Assembly: GCA_035315965.1 (NCBI GenBank)
Contig: DATFXJ010000062.1
Span: forward strand, 5,007 to 69,006
Direction of reading: 5' to 3'
Length of the DNA: 64,000 bases
From: Pseudolabrys sp.
GTDB lineage: Bacteria; Pseudomonadota; Alphaproteobacteria; Rhizobiales; Xanthobacteraceae
The notes beneath the pieces were generated by a model. It did not search any database. It was not told the origin of the DNA and saw nothing but the letters and a program-made list of their open reading frames with translations. The translations under genes were made by a program, and so were the position numbers. Each line of letters opens with the position of its first letter. The first letter of the stretch is position 1. Below, piece by piece: positions 6,997 to 47,885 of this stretch.

Positions 6997-7497
6997 CTAC
7001 GCCAACGTCACCGTGTCGAAATTGGCCGGCATGATGATTTCCAGCAATTCGCAATCGTCGGAATAGCCGACCACGGCGTGCTTGATGCGCGGCGGCTGGA
7101 TCCAGCACGAGCCGGCATGGAACGTATGCGTGCCTTCGCCTTCGAACTCGCTCTTGATCCACCCCTTGAGCACATAGACCATCTGGAAATCGACGTCGTG
7201 ATAATGCCGCTTGGAGACTTCTTCCGGGCGGAACGGAGGAATAAAACGGATGACGTGCGCATGCACCATGCCATCGGTTGCCGTCGCGATACCGAGGTCG
7301 CGGTACTTGGCGTAAGAGCGCAGGCCCTGGTCGAAATCTTCCTCGCGATGATGGCTGAAGGTGAAACGCTGCGGCTTTCGCGCCTTCACGTGTGACGCCC
7401 CCGATGCGCGATGTGCACGTTTCGCGGATTTGACGGCGGTCTTTGTCTTCTTTGTTTTCGCCCTGCTTGCCTTTTCCTTGCGTTTTGCTTTCGCCAT
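6997..7497 (-). CDS. Cupin domain protein with Lys/Arg-rich N-terminal tail
   Basis: Cupin motifs HYHDVDFQMVYVLKG and GSCWIQPPRIKH. Confidence 0.85.
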   Translation of the reverse strand: MAKAKRKEKASRAKTKKTKTAVKSAKRAHRASGASHVKARKPQRFTFSHHREEDFDQGLRSYAKYRDLGIATATDGMVHAHVIRFIPPFRPEEVSKRHYHDVDFQMVYVLKGWIKSEFEGEGTHTFHAGSCWIQPPRIKHAVVGYSDDCELLEIIMPANFDTVTLA

Positions 7498-7517
7498 GAC
7501 AGGCCTCCTTGTGAACC

Positions 7518-7609
7518 GTCATGGCCGGGGCTTGTCCCGGCCGTCCCGCTCAAGGTGGCAACGCGGTTGCGCCCCTAAGTGAGATGCCCGCGATAAGCGC
7601 GGGCATGAC
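7518..7609. repeat. REP-like palindromic element, family A (CTTGTCCCGG core)
   Basis: GTCATG...CATGAC termini with internal GCCGGGGCTTGTCCCGGC and GCCCGCGATAAGCGCGGGC hairpins; homologous copies at 27309 and 50845. Confidence 0.8.
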
Positions 7610-7618
7610 AAGTGAAAG

Positions 7619-8314
7619 TCACTCCGCCGCCTCGGCTGCTCCGCCGTGCGCCTTCGACCAGCCCGCCGGATCGGCGATAAATTTCTCCACCTCTGCCAGC
7701 ATCGTCGGCTCGAATTTCCCGCTCGCTTTCGCAACCGCCAAAACGTGTTTCCAGGTGGTGAGCGGATGCAATCTGACGCCAAGGTCATCAAGGATTTTCT
7801 TACCTTGCGGGTAGATGTCGTAAAAGAAAATCACGAAGCAGTCATCGCACTTGCCGCCTGCTTCGCGCAGCGCGTTGATGAAGTTGACCTTGCTCTTGCC
7901 GTCGGTAGCGAGATCCTCGACCAGCAGCACGCGTTGGCCCGGAATTAATTGCCCCTCGATCTGAGCGCCGCGGCCGAAACCTTTCGGCTTTTTACGCACA
8001 TATTGCATCGGTAGGTGCATGCGGTCGGCCACCCAGGCCGCAAATGGGATGCCGGCGGTTTCGCCGCCCGCCACCGCGTCGATCTTATTGCGGCCGATTT
8101 CGCGTTCGATCGTGTGAACCGCAAAATTCATCAACGTCGAGCGGACGTCGGGAAACGACATCAGCCAGCGCGAGTCGTTGTAGACCGGGCTCGCCCAACC
8201 GCTCGTAAAGATGAACGGCTTGTCGCTCATAAAGCGCACAGCGCCGGTGTCGAGGTACATCCGCGCGGTTAACTCGGCGATGGTTTGCTTGTCGAGAAAC
8301 TGGTTTGACACCAT
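7619..8314 (-). CDS. pyrE: Orotate phosphoribosyltransferase
   Basis: FTSGWASPVYND, VRKKPKGFG and PRPP-binding VLLVEDLATDG motifs. Start set at ATG 8314. Confidence 0.88.
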   Translation of the reverse strand: MVSNQFLDKQTIAELTARMYLDTGAVRFMSDKPFIFTSGWASPVYNDSRWLMSFPDVRSTLMNFAVHTIEREIGRNKIDAVAGGETAGIPFAAWVADRMHLPMQYVRKKPKGFGRGAQIEGQLIPGQRVLLVEDLATDGKSKVNFINALREAGGKCDDCFVIFFYDIYPQGKKILDDLGVRLHPLTTWKHVLAVAKASGKFEPTMLAEVEKFIADPAGWSKAHGGAAEAAE

Positions 8315-8366
8315 GTTGTTTTGCGATCCGCAGACGCTACATGGCTCAGTCAAAGCACAAAACGCC

Positions 8367-9563
8367 TCACGCCGCCATGCCGCAGTGACGCGGCAATTCA
8401 CAGGCAAGATCCAGGAGCGCCTCATCTCCGCCCGCCCAGCCAATGAAGGACAGGCCGATTGGGCATCCGTCGATCGTCCCTGCCGGGATGCTCATTTGCG
8501 GCAAGCCGGAGACGCCGGAGGTGCATGTCAATCGCATGACCCGAACGCGGAATTCTTCCAGTTCCGCGCCTGAAATTTCGACCTTGGGTGCAATGCACGG
8601 TGCAGTCGGCAACGCAAGAATCGTTCCGGGAGCCGTGATCTGCCGGATGTGCTCGCGTGCCTTGATCTGTACGCTGCGAGCGGCGTCGGCCTGCGTCCTC
8701 GTGACAGTGGCGGCAAATTCCATGCGCTCCCGCACGCCCGGACCGATGTTCGGCTTGTGCCTGGTGATAAATCCGCCGAATGTCTGCCACGTTTCGTAAG
8801 CCTGGACGATTCTGAACGCCTCGCGCCAGGTATCGAGACTCTCGGGCGCGATCTTGCCATGCACCATCTCCGGCAAGTCATCGCTCATGAATTCGAGGGC
8901 CGTGCGTAGCAGGTCCGCCACTGGTTCCTCCGCCTGCGCAAAAGCGTCTTCCAGCACGACAACGCGCTCGATCTTCACGGTCACACCACGGTCGTCCAGC
9001 AGCACAGCACCGATCTTACGGAATACGCCCGGCGTTGCCGCGAACCAGCCCGGTACGTCGAAGGTTGGGGCCATGTCGACAACGCCGCTGTGCTCGATGC
9101 GGTCATGCGTGGGCCGAAGGCCATAAATGCCGTTAAAGGACGCGGGGACTCGCACCGAGCCGCCGGTATCGCTGCCGAGCGCGAAATCGCACAAACCAGC
9201 GCCGCAGGCAGCAGCTGCGCCCGCGGACGATCCTCCGGGCAAGCGACCTGGTGCGCGTGCATTCACGGGCGTGCCGTAGTGCGCATTGGCGCCGCTCACG
9301 CTGTAGAAGAATTCATCGCACACAGTTTTGCCGGTGATGGTCGCGCCGGCGTTGAGTATTTTCTGCACCGGCGGGCAATGGCGCGTGGCAGGCGCGTGGC
9401 TTGCGAGCCATTCCGGGTTGCCGCAGCCAGTGCGCTCGCCCGCGATGTCGTACATGTCCTTGACCACCGCACTCAAGCCCGCGAGCGGCCCGCTGGCAGC
9501 GCCTTTGATCGGAGCTTTGATGTCATGCGGAACGAAGCAAGTGCGATAGGCATGCGGCAGCAT
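8367..9563 (-). CDS. Amidase signature family amidase
   Basis: VKDMYD (catalytic Lys), PGGSSAG and GSDTGGSVRVPAS (Ser-cisSer-Lys triad). Start set at ATG 9563. Confidence 0.9.
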   Translation of the reverse strand: MLPHAYRTCFVPHDIKAPIKGAASGPLAGLSAVVKDMYDIAGERTGCGNPEWLASHAPATRHCPPVQKILNAGATITGKTVCDEFFYSVSGANAHYGTPVNARAPGRLPGGSSAGAAAACGAGLCDFALGSDTGGSVRVPASFNGIYGLRPTHDRIEHSGVVDMAPTFDVPGWFAATPGVFRKIGAVLLDDRGVTVKIERVVVLEDAFAQAEEPVADLLRTALEFMSDDLPEMVHGKIAPESLDTWREAFRIVQAYETWQTFGGFITRHKPNIGPGVRERMEFAATVTRTQADAARSVQIKAREHIRQITAPGTILALPTAPCIAPKVEISGAELEEFRVRVMRLTCTSGVSGLPQMSIPAGTIDGCPIGLSFIGWAGGDEALLDLACELPRHCGMAA

Positions 9564-11444: not shown

Positions 11445-12287
11445 ATGAAGCTTGTTCGTTATCGCTCTGCGGTTGGTGAAAAGCCCGGTCTGATTCTAGA
11501 TGGCGAAGTGTTCGACCTGTCGGGTAGCTTTGCCGCCCTCAACCCGCGCGCACCGACGTTTGCCGACATCGAGGCGATCGCGGCTGTACCTGCGAAAGCA
11601 CTGTCGAAAGCGGAGAAGGGCGTCGTGCTGGGCCCGCCTTTGCGCGGCATCGGCAAAATCATTGGCGTTGGCCTGAACTATCGCGATCATGCGGAGGAAA
11701 CCGGCCTACCTTTGCCGAAGGAGCCGACGCTATTTCTAAAAGCCACCAGCGCGCTTTGCGGGCCGACCGACGATCTCGTCGTGCCGCACGGGGCAAAGAG
11801 CGTCGACTGGGAGATCGAGCTCGGCGTGGTGATCGGCAAGCCCGGCGTCTATATCGCGGAGCGGGACGCGCTCGACCATGTGCTTGGTTATTGCGTCGGC
11901 ATCGATTTTTCCGAGCGTGACTTCCAATTCAATCGTGGCGGGCAGGGCTTCAAGGGCAAGAGCGCCGATACTTTCGCGCCGCTCGGTCCGTTCCTGGCGA
12001 CACGCGACGAGATCGCGGATCCACAGAAACTGGCACTGCGCCTCGCAGTCAACGGCGTCGGCAAGCAGAACGGCAATACGCGCGAGATGATTTTTTCGGT
12101 TGCCGAGCTTGTTTCCTACATCAGCCGCTTCATGAGTCTTCAGCCGGGCGACGTGATCCTCACCGGCACGCCTGCGGGCGTCGGCCTCGGCCACAAGCCG
12201 CCGGTTTATCTTAAGGCCGGCGATGTGGTGACGGCCTCGATCGAAGGCCTCGGCGAGCAGAGCCATAAAGTGGTGACTGGCGGATAG
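11445..12287 (+). CDS. Fumarylacetoacetate hydrolase family protein
   Basis: GVGLNYRDH, DWEIELG, DFSERD, KSADTF and GDVILTGTPAGVG motifs. Start at ATG 11445. Confidence 0.9.
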   Translation: MKLVRYRSAVGEKPGLILDGEVFDLSGSFAALNPRAPTFADIEAIAAVPAKALSKAEKGVVLGPPLRGIGKIIGVGLNYRDHAEETGLPLPKEPTLFLKATSALCGPTDDLVVPHGAKSVDWEIELGVVIGKPGVYIAERDALDHVLGYCVGIDFSERDFQFNRGGQGFKGKSADTFAPLGPFLATRDEIADPQKLALRLAVNGVGKQNGNTREMIFSVAELVSYISRFMSLQPGDVILTGTPAGVGLGHKPPVYLKAGDVVTASIEGLGEQSHKVVTGG

Positions 12288-44631: not shown

Positions 44632-45410
44632 GTCAGCGCTCCCTTCGGATCTGTCTTCCGATCTTTGCGCTGGCGCTGGTGATACTTTGCTGGGATTTGG
44701 TCGTTCGTAAGTTCGCTATCCCGCCGTTTGTGTTGCCGAGCCCCGGACTGGTGCTGACGACTTTGATCTCAGATGGAGGTCTACTCTGGCACTCGCTGCT
44801 GGTGACCCTCACCCTCACCTTTGAAGGCTTTCTACTGGCTTCGGTCGGCGGGGTGGTACTGGCAGTCGCGTTCAACCAATGGCGCTTGGTGGAATACTCG
44901 CTGTATCCATACGCCGTCATCCTTCAGGTGACGCCGGTCGTGGCCATCGCGCCGCTATTGCTGATTTATCTTCCGCAGCCCTTGGCAGTGCTAGCCTGCG
45001 CATGGATCGTCGCGTTCTTTCCGGTTTTGGCGAACACAACGCTTGGATTGAATTCGGTCGACCATAACCTGCTCGCTCTTTTCGAGCTTTACAAGGCGTC
45101 ACGCTGGCAGGTGCTGTGGAACCTGAAATTACCGTCAGCCCTGCCTCAAATGCTCGCCGGTCTTCGCATTGCCGGGGGCCTGTCGCTAATTGGCGCGGTA
45201 GTCGCCGAAATTGCCGCCGGCTCCGCAGGCGCGGGTTCGGGGCTGGCATACCGCATTGCGGAGTCCGGCTACCGACTCAATATCCCACGTATGTTCGCTG
45301 CGTTGCTCTTATTGTCCCTCGCGGGTGTAGCGATCTTCTTCGCACTGTCGGCCATCTCGCATTTGGTATTGCGCCGGTGGCACGAGAGTGCGATCGAACG
45401 CGAACGCTAG
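44628..45410 (+). CDS. ABC permease, NitT/TauT family
   Basis: LPSPGLV, QVTPVVAIAP and EAA-like region; GTGA overlap with the ATPase stop. Confidence 0.9.
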   Translation: MSQRSLRICLPIFALALVILCWDLVVRKFAIPPFVLPSPGLVLTTLISDGGLLWHSLLVTLTLTFEGFLLASVGGVVLAVAFNQWRLVEYSLYPYAVILQVTPVVAIAPLLLIYLPQPLAVLACAWIVAFFPVLANTTLGLNSVDHNLLALFELYKASRWQVLWNLKLPSALPQMLAGLRIAGGLSLIGAVVAEIAAGSAGAGSGLAYRIAESGYRLNIPRMFAALLLLSLAGVAIFFALSAISHLVLRRWHESAIERER

Positions 45411-46735
45411 GTTCCAAAAACCAGCCGAACAAAGGCCCCGAGCGCGGCCATTGCTACCACAACTTCGATCAGGCTGCGGTGCAAACCAAATGCTAGCACG
45501 GCTGCAATTGCGGCCAGGGCTGTAGCGCGCAGATCAAGCGCCAACGGATTGAACGCATACCACCGCAAGGGGCCGGCATGAATTTCGGTAACGTTGCCGA
45601 ACAGGACATGGAGCGCGAACCATACTGACAGATTCAAAATTACGCCGACAACGGCGGCCGTAATTGCTGCAAGTGCGCCGGACAATTGGTGATTGGCGCG
45701 GAGCGGCTCGACGAATGGTGCGCCTGCAAAAATCCAGAGCATGGACGGCACGAACGTGACCCATGTGGTCATCGCTGCACCCAAGACACCGGCGGTGATT
45801 GGAGAGAAAGGGGCCGCGTCGCGAAAGGCTGCGAGGAAGCCGACGAATTGAGTGACCAGAATAAGCGGGCCTGGCGTAGTTTCGGCAAGGCCTAGTCCGT
45901 CAACCATCTCAGGTGCTGTCATCCAGCCGTAGGTTTGCACCGCTTCCTGCGCCATGTAGGCAAGCAGCGCATAGGCGCCCCCAAAACTGACGACTGCGAG
46001 CTTCGAGAAAAACATTCCTATGCTCACCAGCACGTGTTCTGGTCCGAAGGTGAGTGCTGCAAGCGCGACCGGCGCCCACCACAAAATCAGACCGATCACC
46101 GACGCTATGGCGAATTGTTGCCAGTGATCCTTTGCGGGCGGTGCGACGCTGTCGACTTTTTCACCGAGGCCAAGCTGGTCTGGCGACCGACGTGCGACAA
46201 CGTAGCCGATGAGCGCCGCTGCCGCGACAATGAGCGGAAAGGGCAGCCCGAGAAAAAAGATGCCGACGAACGCGGCGGCGGCCAGTGAAAGCAGCAGGGA
46301 CGTTTTTAGCGCGCGCTTGCCGATGCGGATCAGCGCCTCGATCACGATCACTAGCACTGCCGCTTTGATGCCATATAGCGCGCCGTCGATGATCGTAATC
46401 CCGCGTCCGAGCGCGTACAGCAGGCTTAGGCCCAGCATCACGAACGCGCCCGGCAGGACGAACAGAATGCCTGCTGTGAGCCCCCCCTGTACGCCGTGCA
46501 GCAGCCAGCCCAGATAAGTCGCAAGCTTTTGTGCCTCTGGGCCGGGTAACAGCATGCAGAAATTCAACGCGTGCAAGAAACGCGCCTCGTCCACCCACTT
46601 CTTTTCGTCGACGACGACGCGATGCATCAAGGCAATCTGCCCGGCCGGCCCACCGAAATTGATGCAGCCGATCTTCAGCCAGGCCATGAAGGCCTCGCCG
46701 AAACTTGACCGGACAGTCGTTTCAATAGTTGCCAT
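45407..46735 (-). CDS. chrA: Chromate efflux transporter
   Basis: FGGPAGQI, LLPGPEAQ, SFGGAYA and AETTPGP motifs of the long-chain CHR family. Confidence 0.92.
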   Translation of the reverse strand: MATIETTVRSSFGEAFMAWLKIGCINFGGPAGQIALMHRVVVDEKKWVDEARFLHALNFCMLLPGPEAQKLATYLGWLLHGVQGGLTAGILFVLPGAFVMLGLSLLYALGRGITIIDGALYGIKAAVLVIVIEALIRIGKRALKTSLLLSLAAAAFVGIFFLGLPFPLIVAAAALIGYVVARRSPDQLGLGEKVDSVAPPAKDHWQQFAIASVIGLILWWAPVALAALTFGPEHVLVSIGMFFSKLAVVSFGGAYALLAYMAQEAVQTYGWMTAPEMVDGLGLAETTPGPLILVTQFVGFLAAFRDAAPFSPITAGVLGAAMTTWVTFVPSMLWIFAGAPFVEPLRANHQLSGALAAITAAVVGVILNLSVWFALHVLFGNVTEIHAGPLRWYAFNPLALDLRATALAAIAAVLAFGLHRSLIEVVVAMAALGAFVRLVFGT

Positions 46736-46740
46736 GCTCG

Positions 46741-46936
46741 TCACGCGGCTTTGGCCGGCCAATTATGTCGTTCTTCCGCAAGTTCTGGCTGCATCCCGCC
46801 AGACTGCACCCGGCAACAAGTGCGGCGACTGTTCATACGCATCGCGTCGCCTGACATCAACGACTTGCGGCGCAACGTACGTCGCAAACGCATTCCATAG
46901 ATCTTTTGGAGAGATCGGAAAGCTCGGAGACAGCAT
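46741..46936 (-). pseudogene. chrB-like (rhodanese plus chromate resistance) gene with internal deletion
   Basis: MLSPSFPISPKDLW...VVDVRRRDAYEQSPHLLPGAVWRD (rhodanese-like start) joined out of frame to LAEERHNWPAKAA*, resembling a ChrB C-terminus; ends 5 nt before chrA. Confidence 0.72.
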
Positions 46937-47017
46937 AGGTCTCCTCCGTAAACGAAGGAGACGGTGCTTGGGCTCGGAGCCTTTTGTGGGCGGGGCGACC
47001 GTCATTGCCCCACATCC
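46937..47017 (-). ncRNA. Structured cis-regulatory leader (chrB RNA motif-like) with pseudoknot and RBS-sequestering hairpin
   Basis: GTGGGGC/GCCCCGC stem; its loop GACGGT is complementary to downstream ACCGTC; GGCT/AGCC hairpin; GTCTCCTTCG/CGGAGGAGAC hairpin containing the SD 2 nt before the ATG. Confidence 0.7.
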
Positions 47018-47129
47018 CTAAACTTACATCACACTGCCTGCCCGTACAAGGGCGTCGCATCGCACCACCGCGTTTTCGTCACTCGCCACCGGGCGCTGCC
47101 TTCGCTAGTTTTTGTGTCGGAGGCCCGTC

Positions 47130-47885
47130 ATGGGTAACAAAATTGATCTTGGTGCACGCAATGCGGTGGTCACCGGCGGTGCGCAAGGCATCGGGCGTGC
47201 GATCGTTGAGCGCTTTCTGGAGTCTGGCGCGGCAGTTGCGATCTGGGATCGCGACAGCGATTTAGCCAAAAAAACGACGATGCAGTTGCAGAACCTTGGC
47301 CGCATTGCATCCTTCGTCGTTGACGTTACCAATTATTCTGACGTGGAACGCGCGCGCGATGACACGATAAAAACGCTCGGCCGCATCGACATTCTGGTCA
47401 ACAATGCAGGTATTGCGGGGCCGAACATTAAGACCTGGGATTATCCGCTCGACGCCTGGCGTAAAGTGCTTGCGATTAATCTTGACGGACCATTCCATTG
47501 CTGCCGCGCCTTGGCACCGGGGATGATCGCGCAGAATTACGGCCGCATCGTCAACATCGCCTCAATCGCAGGCAAAGAGGGCAATCCAAACGCGCCGGCC
47601 TATTCAGCATCGAAGGCGGGCCTCATCGCGCTGACCAAATCACTTGGCAAAGAGCTTGCATCCCATGACATATCGGTGAATTGCATCACACCTGCCGCTG
47701 CGAAAACGGCAATTTTCGATCAGATGACCCAGGAGCATATCGACTTCATGCTCGCTAAGATTCCGCGGGGGCGCTTTGTCACCGTCGAGGAGATCGCGGC
47801 CCTTGCAGCCTTTTGCGCTTCGGCAGACTGTTCGTTCACCACCGGCGCGGTATTCGATATTTCCGGCGGGCGGGCGACCTATTGA
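47130..47885 (+). CDS. SDR oxidoreductase resembling 2-keto-3-deoxy sugar-acid dehydrogenases (LRA5-like)
   Basis: TGGAQGIG, NNAG, YSASK, GKEGNPNA and DCSFTTG...DISGGRATY, recalled as close to Sphingomonas LRA5. Confidence 0.85.
   Translation: MGNKIDLGARNAVVTGGAQGIGRAIVERFLESGAAVAIWDRDSDLAKKTTMQLQNLGRIASFVVDVTNYSDVERARDDTIKTLGRIDILVNNAGIAGPNIKTWDYPLDAWRKVLAINLDGPFHCCRALAPGMIAQNYGRIVNIASIAGKEGNPNAPAYSASKAGLIALTKSLGKELASHDISVNCITPAAAKTAIFDQMTQEHIDFMLAKIPRGRFVTVEEIAALAAFCASADCSFTTGAVFDISGGRATY

What the first reader, a model, noticed from the sequence alone, without database searches (positions are those of the whole stretch)
46934..47017. Pseudoknot versus anti-Shine-Dalgarno switch upstream of chrB-chrA
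Seen, minus strand: GGAU-GUGGGGC-AAUGACGGUC-GCCCCGC-CCACAAAA-GGCU-CCG-AGCC-CAAGC-ACC-GUCUCCUUCG-UUUA-CGGAGGAGAC-CU-AUG. Loop GACGGU pairs perfectly with ACCGUC, whose last three bases also begin the 10-bp hairpin burying the GGAGGAG RBS, so the two structures compete. Known: chrB-a/chrB-b RNA motifs were reported bioinformatically upstream of chromate-resistance genes as cis-regulatory candidates, with no ligand that I know of. Inference: an orphan riboswitch-like translational ON switch, possibly sensing an oxyanion or metal.
Basis: partly seen in the sequence, partly recalled or inferred. Interest (0 to 1): 0.72.

Follow-up and report, generated by a model that had tools for sequence, protein, structure and literature searches.

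The report
Divergent chrB leader RNA before chrA
The 84-nt structure is a real, intact copy of a sub-threshold variant of the already published "chrB" candidate riboswitch; comparisons across genomes support the proposed pseudoknot-versus-ribosome-site competition, but the chrB gene it once controlled is here a 57-codon stump in front of chrA.

Summary
The sequence at 46934-47017 (minus strand) reads exactly as described. It is a diverged member of the published chrB-a/chrB-b RNA class. Both Rfam models align to it end to end but below their cut-offs: 29.0 against 43.9 bits, and 25.3 against 36.5 bits.

The loop-to-tail pseudoknot covaries strongly across the three subtypes. This pseudoknot is not new: CaCoFold reported one for chrB RNA in 2020.

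The hairpin that sequesters the Shine-Dalgarno (SD) sequence also covaries. Window U46961 belongs to both helices and changes together with both of its partners (A-U-A, G-U-A, G-U-G, G-C-G).

A promoter-like motif ends 6-7 nt before stem P1 in 63 of 78 distinct upstream contexts, so the element is probably the very 5' end of the mRNA.

The gene context was misread. Relatives (Pseudolabrys, Xanthobacteraceae) carry a 274-aa rhodanese+ChrB_C gene here. The window has lost 639 nt of it, leaving a frameshifted 57-codon ORF 27 nt upstream of an intact chrA.

The ligand is unknown, and the published in vitro tests with chromate were negative. The translational ON-switch model is plausible but inferred.

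Verdict: real, a variant of a known kind, moderate interest.

The parts
47044..47049 (-). -35-like hexamer TTGTAC
   Evidence: Read. The arrangement TTGNNN-N16-18-TANNNN ending 6-7 nt before P1 occurs in 63 of 78 distinct upstream contexts of related elements, against 1.5 expected from shuffles. The strict consensus scan found nothing here.
47021..47026 (-). -10-like hexamer TAAGTT, 17-nt spacer from the -35 and 7 nt before P1. The predicted transcription start is at or just before 47013-47017.
46934..47017 (-). The whole leader RNA element, a window-type chrB variant, from the 5' end to the AUG
   Evidence: Sub-threshold full-length Rfam alignments: chrB-a 29.0 bits (model positions 1-80 of 80) and chrB-b 25.3 bits (1-49 of 49). 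Homologous copies at 75-87% identity in same-genus genomes. The subtype pattern is present in 57 of 301 genomes of the family, with 0 control hits.
46990..47013 (-). P1 hairpin: GUGGGGC (47013-47007), 10-nt loop (47006-46997), GCCCCGC (46996-46990)
   Evidence: 97.6% of cells paired in 66 distinct sequences. Pair types include U-G, C-G and U-A at one position; the G-U pairs point to RNA-level, sense-strand structure.
46998..47003 (-). Pseudoknot 5' strand GACGGU, inside the P1 loop
   Evidence: Core 5-bp pseudoknot: 91.4% paired across 51 distinct haplotypes of three subtypes, with 4 of 5 pairs changed on both sides; covariation score 0.535 against 0.254 shuffled (0 of 500) and at most 0.144 when slid. 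Within the subtype, 99.2% paired.
46971..46981 (-). P2 mini-hairpin GGCU-CCG-AGCC
   Evidence: 91.3% paired in alignment A2; changes are on one side only, with no compensatory doubles within the subtype. It corresponds to P2 of the chrB-b model.
46966..46970 (-). Conserved single-stranded linker CAAGC (CCCAAGC with the end of P2)
   Evidence: Invariant in alignment A2. Shared with the chrB-a and chrB-b consensus sequences.
46960..46965 (-). Pseudoknot 3' strand ACCGUC. Its last three bases (46962-46960) are also the first three of the SD hairpin.
   Evidence: Family-wide, loop A/G against tail U/C: A-U 35, G-C 26, G-U 11, A-C 0.
46939..46962 (-). SD-sequestering hairpin GUCUCCUUCG-UUUA-CGGAGGAGAC; SD GGAGGAG at 46947-46941
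   Evidence: -15.2 to -16.3 kcal/mol. 97.9% paired, with 4 of 10 pairs changed on both sides. RNAalifold predicts 8 of the 10 pairs independently.
46763..46936 (-). 57-codon remnant ORF: the first ~49 codons of a rhodanese+ChrB_C gene, then out-of-frame codons to TAA
   Evidence: Rhodanese-ChrE model NF033833, positions 5-47 of 108 only. 77% identical to residues 1-53 of the relatives' 274-aa protein. The relatives' protein carries Rhodanese and ChrB_C domains.
46781..46790 (-). Deletion junction: 639 nt of the rhodanese+ChrB_C gene present in the closest relative are missing, with about 10 unaligned nt in their place
   Evidence: The BLAST alignment to L114 is colinear on both sides: window 47112-46791 matches L114 1308-1646, and window 46780-46600 matches L114 2286-2466. 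The same break appears against L065, L066 and L069.
45407..46735 (-). chrA (chromate ion transporter), apparently intact; ATG at 46735-46733
   Evidence: PF02417, 4e-70, two domains; TIGR00937, 207.8 bits. Colinear with the relatives' 438-445-aa ChrA.

Best explanation
The element is an intact 5' leader RNA of the chrB class. This class comprises the candidate, ligand-orphan riboswitch motifs chrB-a and chrB-b of alpha-proteobacteria. The window carries a third sequence subtype that is common in Xanthobacteraceae and scores below both Rfam cut-offs.

Architecture, shown by comparison:
- G-rich hairpin P1
- small hairpin P2
- invariant single-stranded CCAAGC
- a 5-6-bp pseudoknot between the 3' side of the P1 loop and the tail after CAAGC
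- immediately after that, a hairpin whose 3' arm contains the Shine-Dalgarno sequence

The pseudoknot 3' strand and the 5' arm of the SD hairpin share 2-3 nucleotides, so the two helices cannot both be complete.

Mechanism, inferred: with no signal, the 10-bp hairpin (about -16 kcal/mol) masks GGAGGAG and translation is low. A signal that stabilises the pseudoknot takes the three closing pairs from the hairpin. Candidates for the signal are an unidentified small ligand, which I think most likely, or a protein. Losing those pairs costs about 7 kcal/mol and lowers the unfolding cost for the 30S subunit, so translation rises. This makes it an ON switch that modulates SD masking and does not fully expose the SD.

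In this genome the regulated ORF is only a 57-codon remnant of rhodanese+ChrB_C. The element would therefore now act on chrA indirectly. chrA has no good SD of its own, and in relatives its ATG lies 5 nt after the chrB stop. Here the remnant ORF ends 27 nt before the chrA ATG, so control would run through translation of the leader-like remnant ORF.

The confidence given (0.6) is for the whole statement: about 0.9 for membership of the chrB class and about 0.55-0.6 for the signal-dependent ON switch.
For: Identity:
- Full-length but sub-threshold alignments to RF03078 and RF03086.
- The same element sits upstream of rhodanese+ChrB_C and chrA in 80 related loci, named Pseudolabrys, Undibacter, Pseudorhodoplanes and Rhodoplanes in the record titles.
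- Sister elements score 32-35 bits, and a neighbouring genus reaches 37-39 bits against the 36.5-bit cut-off.
- The subtype pattern is in 57 of 301 genomes of the family and 21 of 62 genera, with 0 control hits.

Pseudoknot:
- 91.4% paired; 4 of 5 pairs have double changes; covariation score 0.535 against 0.254 in shuffles (0 of 500 as high) and at most 0.144 when slid.
- Loop/tail combinations A-U 35, G-C 26, G-U 11, A-C 0.
- Published by CaCoFold.

SD hairpin:
- 97.9% paired, with 4 pairs changed on both sides.
- Predicted independently by RNAalifold.

Competition:
- In 66 natural sequences, alignment column 105 (window U46961) pairs with column 15 as AU 41, GU 18, GC 7. It pairs with column 130 as UA 56, CG 7, UG 3.
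- The overlap of 2-3 nt is kept in chrB-a, chrB-b and the window type, although their sequences differ.

Energetics: the full-hairpin state is -33.2 kcal/mol. Removing 3 outer pairs gives -25.9. The pseudoknot duplex is -7.9, so the two states are roughly iso-energetic.

Promoter-like motif ending 6-7 nt before P1.

Context.
Against: - No ligand is known. Weinberg et al. 2017 report no in vitro binding of chromate or structurally related chemicals (PMC5737381). No later validation was found in the held library.
- With the pseudoknot formed, a 7-bp hairpin of about -8 kcal/mol still covers GGAGG, so the size of any effect is uncertain.
- The three-way covariation rests on a few lineages and was not corrected for phylogeny.
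- The anchored alignment A1 is made of spliced segments that I chose by rule.
- No transcript or transcription-start data could be obtained.
- The regulated gene is decayed here, so this copy may be under relaxed selection. The window copy also scores lowest of those tested (25.3 bits).
Confidence: 0.6

Rival explanations
1. It is the same conserved chrB-class RNA, but it is not a metabolite sensor. A protein recognises the P1/pseudoknot/CCAAGC core and shifts the balance with the SD hairpin. Candidates are a ChrB_C-family or other stress-responsive factor, or a trans-acting sRNA.
For: Published in vitro tests found no binding of chromate or its analogues. The RNA almost always travels with ChrB_C-domain genes. 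Its most conserved parts are single-stranded (CCAAGC and the loop), which would also suit a protein site.
Against: I know of no evidence that ChrB_C binds RNA. The class precedes many different gene types in one genome: SOD, MatE, ABC-2, DUF1127, tauE. It also occurs in tandem before tauE. Both features are typical of riboswitches. The compact pseudoknotted fold with an invariant junction resembles known small aptamers.
Confidence: 0.2
2. It is a constitutive structured leader. The hairpin simply damps translation or stabilises the mRNA, and the pseudoknot is a static part of the fold that never exchanges with the hairpin.
For: The hairpin is very stable, at -15 to -16 kcal/mol. Only 2-3 nt overlap, so a 3-bp-shorter pseudoknot and the full hairpin could coexist.
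Against: The shared nucleotide keeps pairing potential with both partners through A-U-A, G-U-A, G-U-G and G-C-G states. There is no reason for this if one of the two pairs never forms. The overlap is conserved in three subtypes with different sequences.
Confidence: 0.12
3. It is not an RNA element. It is either a DNA operator palindrome for a ChrB-like repressor, or coding sequence: the 80-aa ORF that starts at the ATG at 47005 inside the P1 loop.
For: P1 is an inverted repeat next to a promoter-like motif. An in-frame ATG at 47005 extends the ORF.
Against: G-U pairs are frequent and strand-specific: P1 U-G in 37 of 66 sequences and hairpin U-G in 58 of 66. Relatives lack the ATG in the loop (CUGCGACGG and similar) and carry 1-2-nt and larger indels in the linkers and in P2. 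Substitutions are compensatory and do not follow codon positions.
Confidence: 0.03

Closest known systems
chrB-b RNA motif (Rfam RF03086; Weinberg et al. 2017, PMC5737381)
   Same: G-rich P1 hairpin, small P2 hairpin, and a CCAAGC linker followed by a tail complementary to the 3' side of the P1 loop. Found in 5' UTRs of chromate-resistance genes of alpha-proteobacteria. The model aligns to the window over all 49 positions. The same genome holds 7 canonical copies.
   Different: The score is 25.3 bits against a gathering score of 36.5. The pseudoknot reads GACGG(U):(A)CCGUC where the canonical motif has GCAG(N):(N)CUGC, so two pairs are changed on both sides, which a covariance model without pseudoknots penalises. 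P2 is GGCU/AGCC where the canonical motif has GACGG/CCGUC. The SD hairpin follows directly, as in chrB-a.
chrB-a RNA motif (Rfam RF03078)
   Same: P1, the AAG linker, the tail, and a 3' hairpin that carries the SD just before the AUG. The model aligns over positions 1-80 of 80. There is the same 2-3-nt overlap between the pseudoknot 3' strand (AUCGC) and the hairpin 5' arm (GCGUCC).
   Different: The score is 29.0 bits against 43.9. The pseudoknot is GCGAU:AUCGC in chrB-a. The chrB-a hairpin has 6-7 bp and a long loop, against 10 bp and a tetraloop here.
chrB pseudoknot reported by CaCoFold (Rivas 2020, PMC7657543)
   Same: A loop-to-tail pseudoknot supported by covariation. It is cited there as an example of a 'new pseudoknot with covariation support'.
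   Different: The text I could read does not discuss an exchange with the SD hairpin or this subtype. I could not see the figure or the table, so I cannot confirm that the pairs are the same.
Translational ON riboswitches with a shared switching strand (e.g. the Vibrio vulnificus add adenine riboswitch; the pseudoknot-versus-terminator logic of ZTP). From my own knowledge.
   Same: A few nucleotides can join either the aptamer helix or the helix that hides the expression signal. Stabilising the aptamer helix turns expression on.
   Different: No ligand is known here. Only 3 of the 10 masking pairs are contested. Membership in those classes is not claimed.

Membership tests
chrB-b RNA (RF03086) | Infernal score at or above the curated gathering score (36.5 bits) | tested here: not met
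   25.3 bits, E = 0.005, on an 801-nt search. No hit at the gathering threshold in the whole window. Sister elements score 32-35 bits; copies in another genus score 37-39 bits.
chrB-b RNA (RF03086) | P1 and P2 hairpins plus the conserved CCAAGC linker, in model register | tested here: met
   The alignment covers model positions 1-49 of 49. P1 is 97.6% and P2 91.3% paired in 66 sequences. CAAGC is invariant.
chrB RNA class (a and b) | Pseudoknot between the P1 loop and the tail after the linker | tested here: met
   Perfect 6 bp in the window. At fixed anchored columns across subtypes it is 91.4% paired, with 4 of 5 pairs changed on both sides. A-C combinations are absent in 72 distinct family-wide matches.
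chrB-a RNA (RF03078) | Infernal score at or above the gathering score (43.9 bits) | tested here: not met
   29.0 bits, E = 0.007.
chrB-a RNA (RF03078) | 3' hairpin containing the SD immediately before the start codon | tested here: met
   A 10-bp hairpin with GGAGGAG in its 3' arm, 2 nt before the AUG. 97.9% paired with compensatory changes.
chrB RNA class | Location in the 5' UTR of chromate-resistance genes of alpha-proteobacteria | tested here: met
   Upstream of a rhodanese+ChrB_C remnant and chrA. The genus is Pseudolabrys by the relatives' record titles. A promoter-like motif lies directly upstream. The transcription start was not measured.
Riboswitch (ligand-binding cis-regulatory RNA) | Direct, specific binding of a small molecule that changes the expression platform | not testable with these tools
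   Only published negative in vitro results for chromate and its analogues are available.

The most novel reading that the evidence does not exclude
chrB-class RNAs, including this unannotated third subtype, are true riboswitches whose signal is not chromate itself. The signal would be a metabolite or ion produced under chromate, sulfur or oxidative stress. The pseudoknot/SD-hairpin exchange seen here in three-way covariation would be their switching mechanism. The unusually large chrB regulon of this one genome then offers a route to identifying the ligand. That regulon is 8 elements before chrA, ChrB_C, an Fe/Mn SOD operon, MatE, an ABC-2 exporter, DUF1127 and small leader ORFs, plus tauE and rhodanese in relatives.
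Probability: 0.45. Interest if true: 0.7.

Novelty: new variant of a known kind. Interest (0 to 1): 0.4.

Why it matters
chrB RNA is one of the orphan riboswitch candidates from 2017 whose ligand is still unknown. This work gives three practical leads.

1. A third, widespread subtype is present in about one fifth of the sampled Xanthobacteraceae genomes and falls below the current Rfam cut-offs. Annotation therefore misses it, and the known regulon is incomplete.

2. There is now comparative evidence that one nucleotide is kept able to pair in both the pseudoknot and the SD hairpin. That turns "structured leader" into a concrete switching model that can be tested by mutation.

3. Gene associations (tauE, rhodanese, SOD, MatE, ABC-2, DUF1127, short leader ORFs) widen the set of candidate signals beyond chromate.

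For this particular locus the result is more modest: a known kind of leader in front of a decayed chrB gene and an intact chrA.

Tried and rejected
- The Rfam gathering-threshold scan of the whole window gave 0 hits. Only the E-value mode exposed the sub-threshold chrB-a and chrB-b alignments.
- The genome search with RF03078 on the window's own genome missed the window copy and returned only weak noise.
- The strict sigma-70 and terminator scan found nothing in 46700-47200. There is no intrinsic terminator after the hairpin, so I dropped transcription attenuation. I replaced the strict promoter scan with a looser position-anchored test across relatives.
- My first two automatic parsers for P2 and the linker misplaced the tail in many sequences. 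I replaced them with an anchor on the end of P2 plus CAAG.
- The sixth pseudoknot pair (G47003-C46960) is only 62.7% paired across subtypes. I treat 5 bp as the conserved core.
- I asked whether the single element arose by recombination between the two copies seen in relatives. The element is equidistant from the A and B copies. The closest relative already has the single-element layout. This is therefore unresolved and not specific to the window.
- I rejected the 80-aa ORF starting at 47005, because that ATG is not conserved.
I could not check transcripts, the transcription start, or reads across the deletion junction, so an assembly artefact at 46781-46790 cannot be formally excluded.
- No chrB-like element was visible upstream of the ChrB_C paralogue on contig C74.
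- The supplementary text of Weinberg 2017 is not held.

Full report
**1. Observation**

The layout is:
- P1: GUGGGGC (47013-47007) / GCCCCGC (46996-46990), with the 10-nt loop AAUGACGGUC
- P2: GGCU-CCG-AGCC (46981-46971)
- CAAGC (46970-46966)
- ACC
- the hairpin GUCUCCUUCG-UUUA-CGGAGGAGAC (46962-46939)
- CU
- AUG (46936-46934)

Loop GACGGU (47003-46998) is perfectly complementary to ACCGUC (46965-46960). The last three bases of ACCGUC open the 10-bp hairpin that holds GGAGGAG (46947-46941).

ViennaRNA recovers P1, P2 and the hairpin at -40.7 kcal/mol, z = -3.2.

Taken alone, a 6-nt loop/downstream complement is not rare. It occurs in 5-6% of shuffles. The question had to be settled by comparison with other genomes.

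**2. What it is**

At Rfam's gathering thresholds the window has no hit. In E-value mode both chrB models align to exactly this stretch over their full length:
- chrB-a (RF03078): 29.0 bits against a gathering score of 43.9
- chrB-b (RF03086): 25.3 bits against a gathering score of 36.5

Weinberg et al. 2017 describe chrB-a and chrB-b as related motifs in presumed 5' UTRs of several chromate-resistance gene classes in alpha-proteobacteria. They found no in vitro evidence that the RNAs bind chromate or related chemicals (PMC5737381). No later validation was found in the held library.

The window's own genome is a ~3.0-Mb, 220-contig assembly. It contains seven canonical chrB-b copies above threshold (40-61 bits) on two other contigs.

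Same-genus genomes carry clear homologues of the window element at 75-87% identity. Record titles of 80 loci recovered with the downstream protein name them Pseudolabrys, Undibacter, Pseudorhodoplanes and Rhodoplanes, mostly soil and groundwater MAGs.

Sister elements score 32-35 bits against chrB-b. Similar copies in another genus score 37-39 bits. This is therefore a borderline-to-sub-threshold subtype of the same class.

A subtype-specific pattern, GRCGGUCGCCCY...CCAAGCRCCGYYUC, occurs in 57 of 301 sampled genomes of the family and in 21 of 62 genera. The reversed control pattern gave no hits.

**3. Pseudoknot**

I extracted 85 elements:
- 31 of the window type
- 30 chrB-a
- 17 chrB-b or chrB-b-like from the order
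- 7 from the window's own genome

I anchored the columns by rule. The five loop bases are those that precede the last loop base before the P1 closing pair. The five tail bases follow the end of P2, a 4-nt linker and one spacer.

On the 51 distinct haplotypes (alignment A1, made of spliced equal-length segments), the count of structure pairs gave the following:

| Measure | Result |
|---|---|
| Core 5 bp, cells paired | 91.4% |
| Pairs changed on both sides | 4 of 5 |
| Covariation score | 0.535 |
| Covariation score, shuffled | 0.254 (0 of 500 shuffles as high) |
| Covariation score, slid registers | at most 0.144 |

Examples of covarying pairs:
- GCGAU:AUCGC, GCGAA:UUCGC and GCGGGU:ACCUGC (chrB-a)
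- GCAGA:UCUGC, GCAGU:ACUGC, GCAGC:GCUGC and GCGGC:GCCGC (chrB-b)
- GACGGU:ACCGUC and GGCGGU:ACCGCC (window type)

In 72 distinct family-wide pattern matches, the loop purine and the tail pyrimidine combine as A-U 35, G-C 26, G-U 11 and A-C 0. Fisher's exact test gives 3e-11, not corrected for phylogeny.

The window's two double changes relative to the chrB-b consensus pseudoknot explain part of its low score, because covariance models cannot score pseudoknots.

The pseudoknot is not new. Rivas 2020 names chrB RNA as an example of a 'new pseudoknot with covariation support' (PMC7657543).

**4. SD hairpin and competition**

I aligned 66 distinct contiguous sequences of the window type, from P1 to the start codon (alignment A2).

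- The 6-bp pseudoknot is 99.2% paired.
- The 10-bp hairpin is 97.9% paired, with four pairs changed on both sides.
- RNAalifold predicts P1 and 8 of the hairpin's 10 pairs on its own.

The key column is 105, which is window U46961.
- With its pseudoknot partner (column 15) it forms AU 41, GU 18, GC 7.
- With its hairpin partner (column 130) it forms UA 56, CG 7, UG 3.

Single sequences show four states: A-U-A, G-U-A, G-U-G and G-C-G. One nucleotide that keeps pairing potential with two different partners is what two alternative helices predict.

Across all three subtypes, the hairpin 5' arm starts at the fourth base of the 5-nt pseudoknot strand in almost every sequence. The SD is paired in all of them.

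**5. Energetics (inference from nearest-neighbour values)**

| State | Energy (kcal/mol) |
|---|---|
| P1 + P2 + full hairpin | -33.2 |
| Same, with the three contested pairs removed | -25.9 (cost 7.3) |
| 6-bp pseudoknot duplex | about -7.9 |

The two states are roughly balanced, as a switch needs. In the pseudoknot state, however, a 7-bp hairpin of about -8 kcal/mol still covers GGAGG. The model is therefore "weakened masking", not "SD set free".

**6. Promoter**

In the window, TTGTAC (47049-47044), a 17-nt spacer and TAAGTT (47026-47021) end 7 nt before P1. The same arrangement ends 6-7 nt before P1 in 63 of 78 distinct upstream contexts, where 1.5 would be expected from shuffles. The RNA probably starts at P1.

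No hairpin-plus-U-tract terminator follows, so control is translational.

**7. Gene context**

The ORF at the AUG has 57 codons. It matches only positions 5-47 of a 108-position rhodanese (ChrE-type) model.

In relatives the gene at this position encodes 274-278 aa with Rhodanese and ChrB_C domains, and it is followed by chrA.

The closest relative found is L114, a Pseudolabrys MAG. It has the same layout as the window: SDR gene, divergent; single element; rhodanese+ChrB_C; chrA. The window aligns colinearly to L114 except that L114 1647-2285 (639 nt) is missing, with the junction at window 46790-46781. The frame shifts and the ORF ends at TAA 46765-46763. The old C-terminus (...AEERHNWPAKAA) survives out of frame.

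The window's own genome has no other full-length copy and no tauE. It has only ChrB_C-only paralogues on contigs C74 and C173.

chrA (46735-45407) looks intact. In relatives the chrB stop lies 5 nt before the chrA ATG, with no good SD, which implies translational coupling. Here the remnant ORF ends 27 nt upstream of that ATG. The leader may still gate chrA through the stump, but this is inference.

**8. Other layouts in relatives**

Many Pseudolabrys genomes have two window-type copies about 1 kb apart:
- Copy A is followed by a conserved 5-codon ORF ending in TAG.
- Next comes a canonical chrB-b (42-55 bits; for example L103 567-619).
- Next comes tauE.
- Copy B precedes rhodanese+ChrB_C.

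Whether the single-copy layout is ancestral or arose by recombination between A and B cannot be decided.

**9. Comparison with earlier notes of this scan**

Three notes on other genomes (e1-4034541, e1-4231999, e1-5211277) reached the same "third/divergent chrB subtype" reading, including the 5-codon ORF before tauE. I read them after I had derived the same picture. They are not independent evidence.

**10. Verdict**

- The element is a real, intact leader of a known orphan class, in a subtype that curated models miss.
- The pseudoknot was already published.
- The added value is comparative support for the pseudoknot/SD-hairpin exchange, and the correct reading of the decayed locus.
- My confidence that it belongs to the chrB class is about 0.9. 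My confidence that it works as a signal-dependent translational ON switch is about 0.55-0.6. The nature of the signal is unknown.

Noticed in passing
Own genome contig C173 (locus L101), 7482-9428: Five canonical chrB-b RNAs (40-61 bits) lie within 2 kb. They precede an ABC ATPase plus ABC-2 permease, a ChrB_C-only 153-aa gene, a DUF1127 gene, a 23-codon ORF, and a 35-codon ORF that leads into a 298-aa NHL/propeller-like gene. This is an unusually dense cluster of one leader class, and several copies are followed by short leader ORFs.
   Followed up: partly
Own genome contig C102 (locus L102), 9093-9141 and 11981-12034: Two more canonical chrB-b RNAs. One precedes an unknown 224-aa gene followed by an Fe/Mn superoxide dismutase and a DUF1259 gene. 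The other precedes a MatE transporter. A cation-efflux (CDF) gene and a LysR gene are neighbours.
   Followed up: partly
L103 398-645 (Pseudolabrys relative), and likewise L104, L110, L111, L117, L150, L162, L164, L176, L181: A tandem leader lies before tauE. The order is: window-type element; 5-codon ORF (M-x-x-x-x-TAG, apparently a relic of the rhodanese start ATGCTGTCTCCGAGCTAC); about 70 nt; a canonical chrB-b above the Rfam cut-off; the tauE start.
   Followed up: partly
window 46733-46765: chrA has no convincing SD. In relatives the chrB stop is 5 nt before the chrA ATG, which suggests coupling. In the window the remnant ORF stops 27 nt before that ATG, so chrA expression may be reduced.
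   Followed up: no
window 46741-46893 (minus strand): A 50-aa ORF in another frame ends in ...AEERHNWPAKAA. This is the conserved C-terminus of the relatives' rhodanese+ChrB_C protein, left behind by the 639-nt deletion.
   Followed up: yes
L139 (MAG MFD05512.bin.1.169), upstream of its rhodanese+ChrB_C gene: One relative has loop GACGAG in place of GACGGU, with an unchanged tail. That gives two pseudoknot mismatches, so this may be a broken copy or a sequencing error.
   Followed up: no
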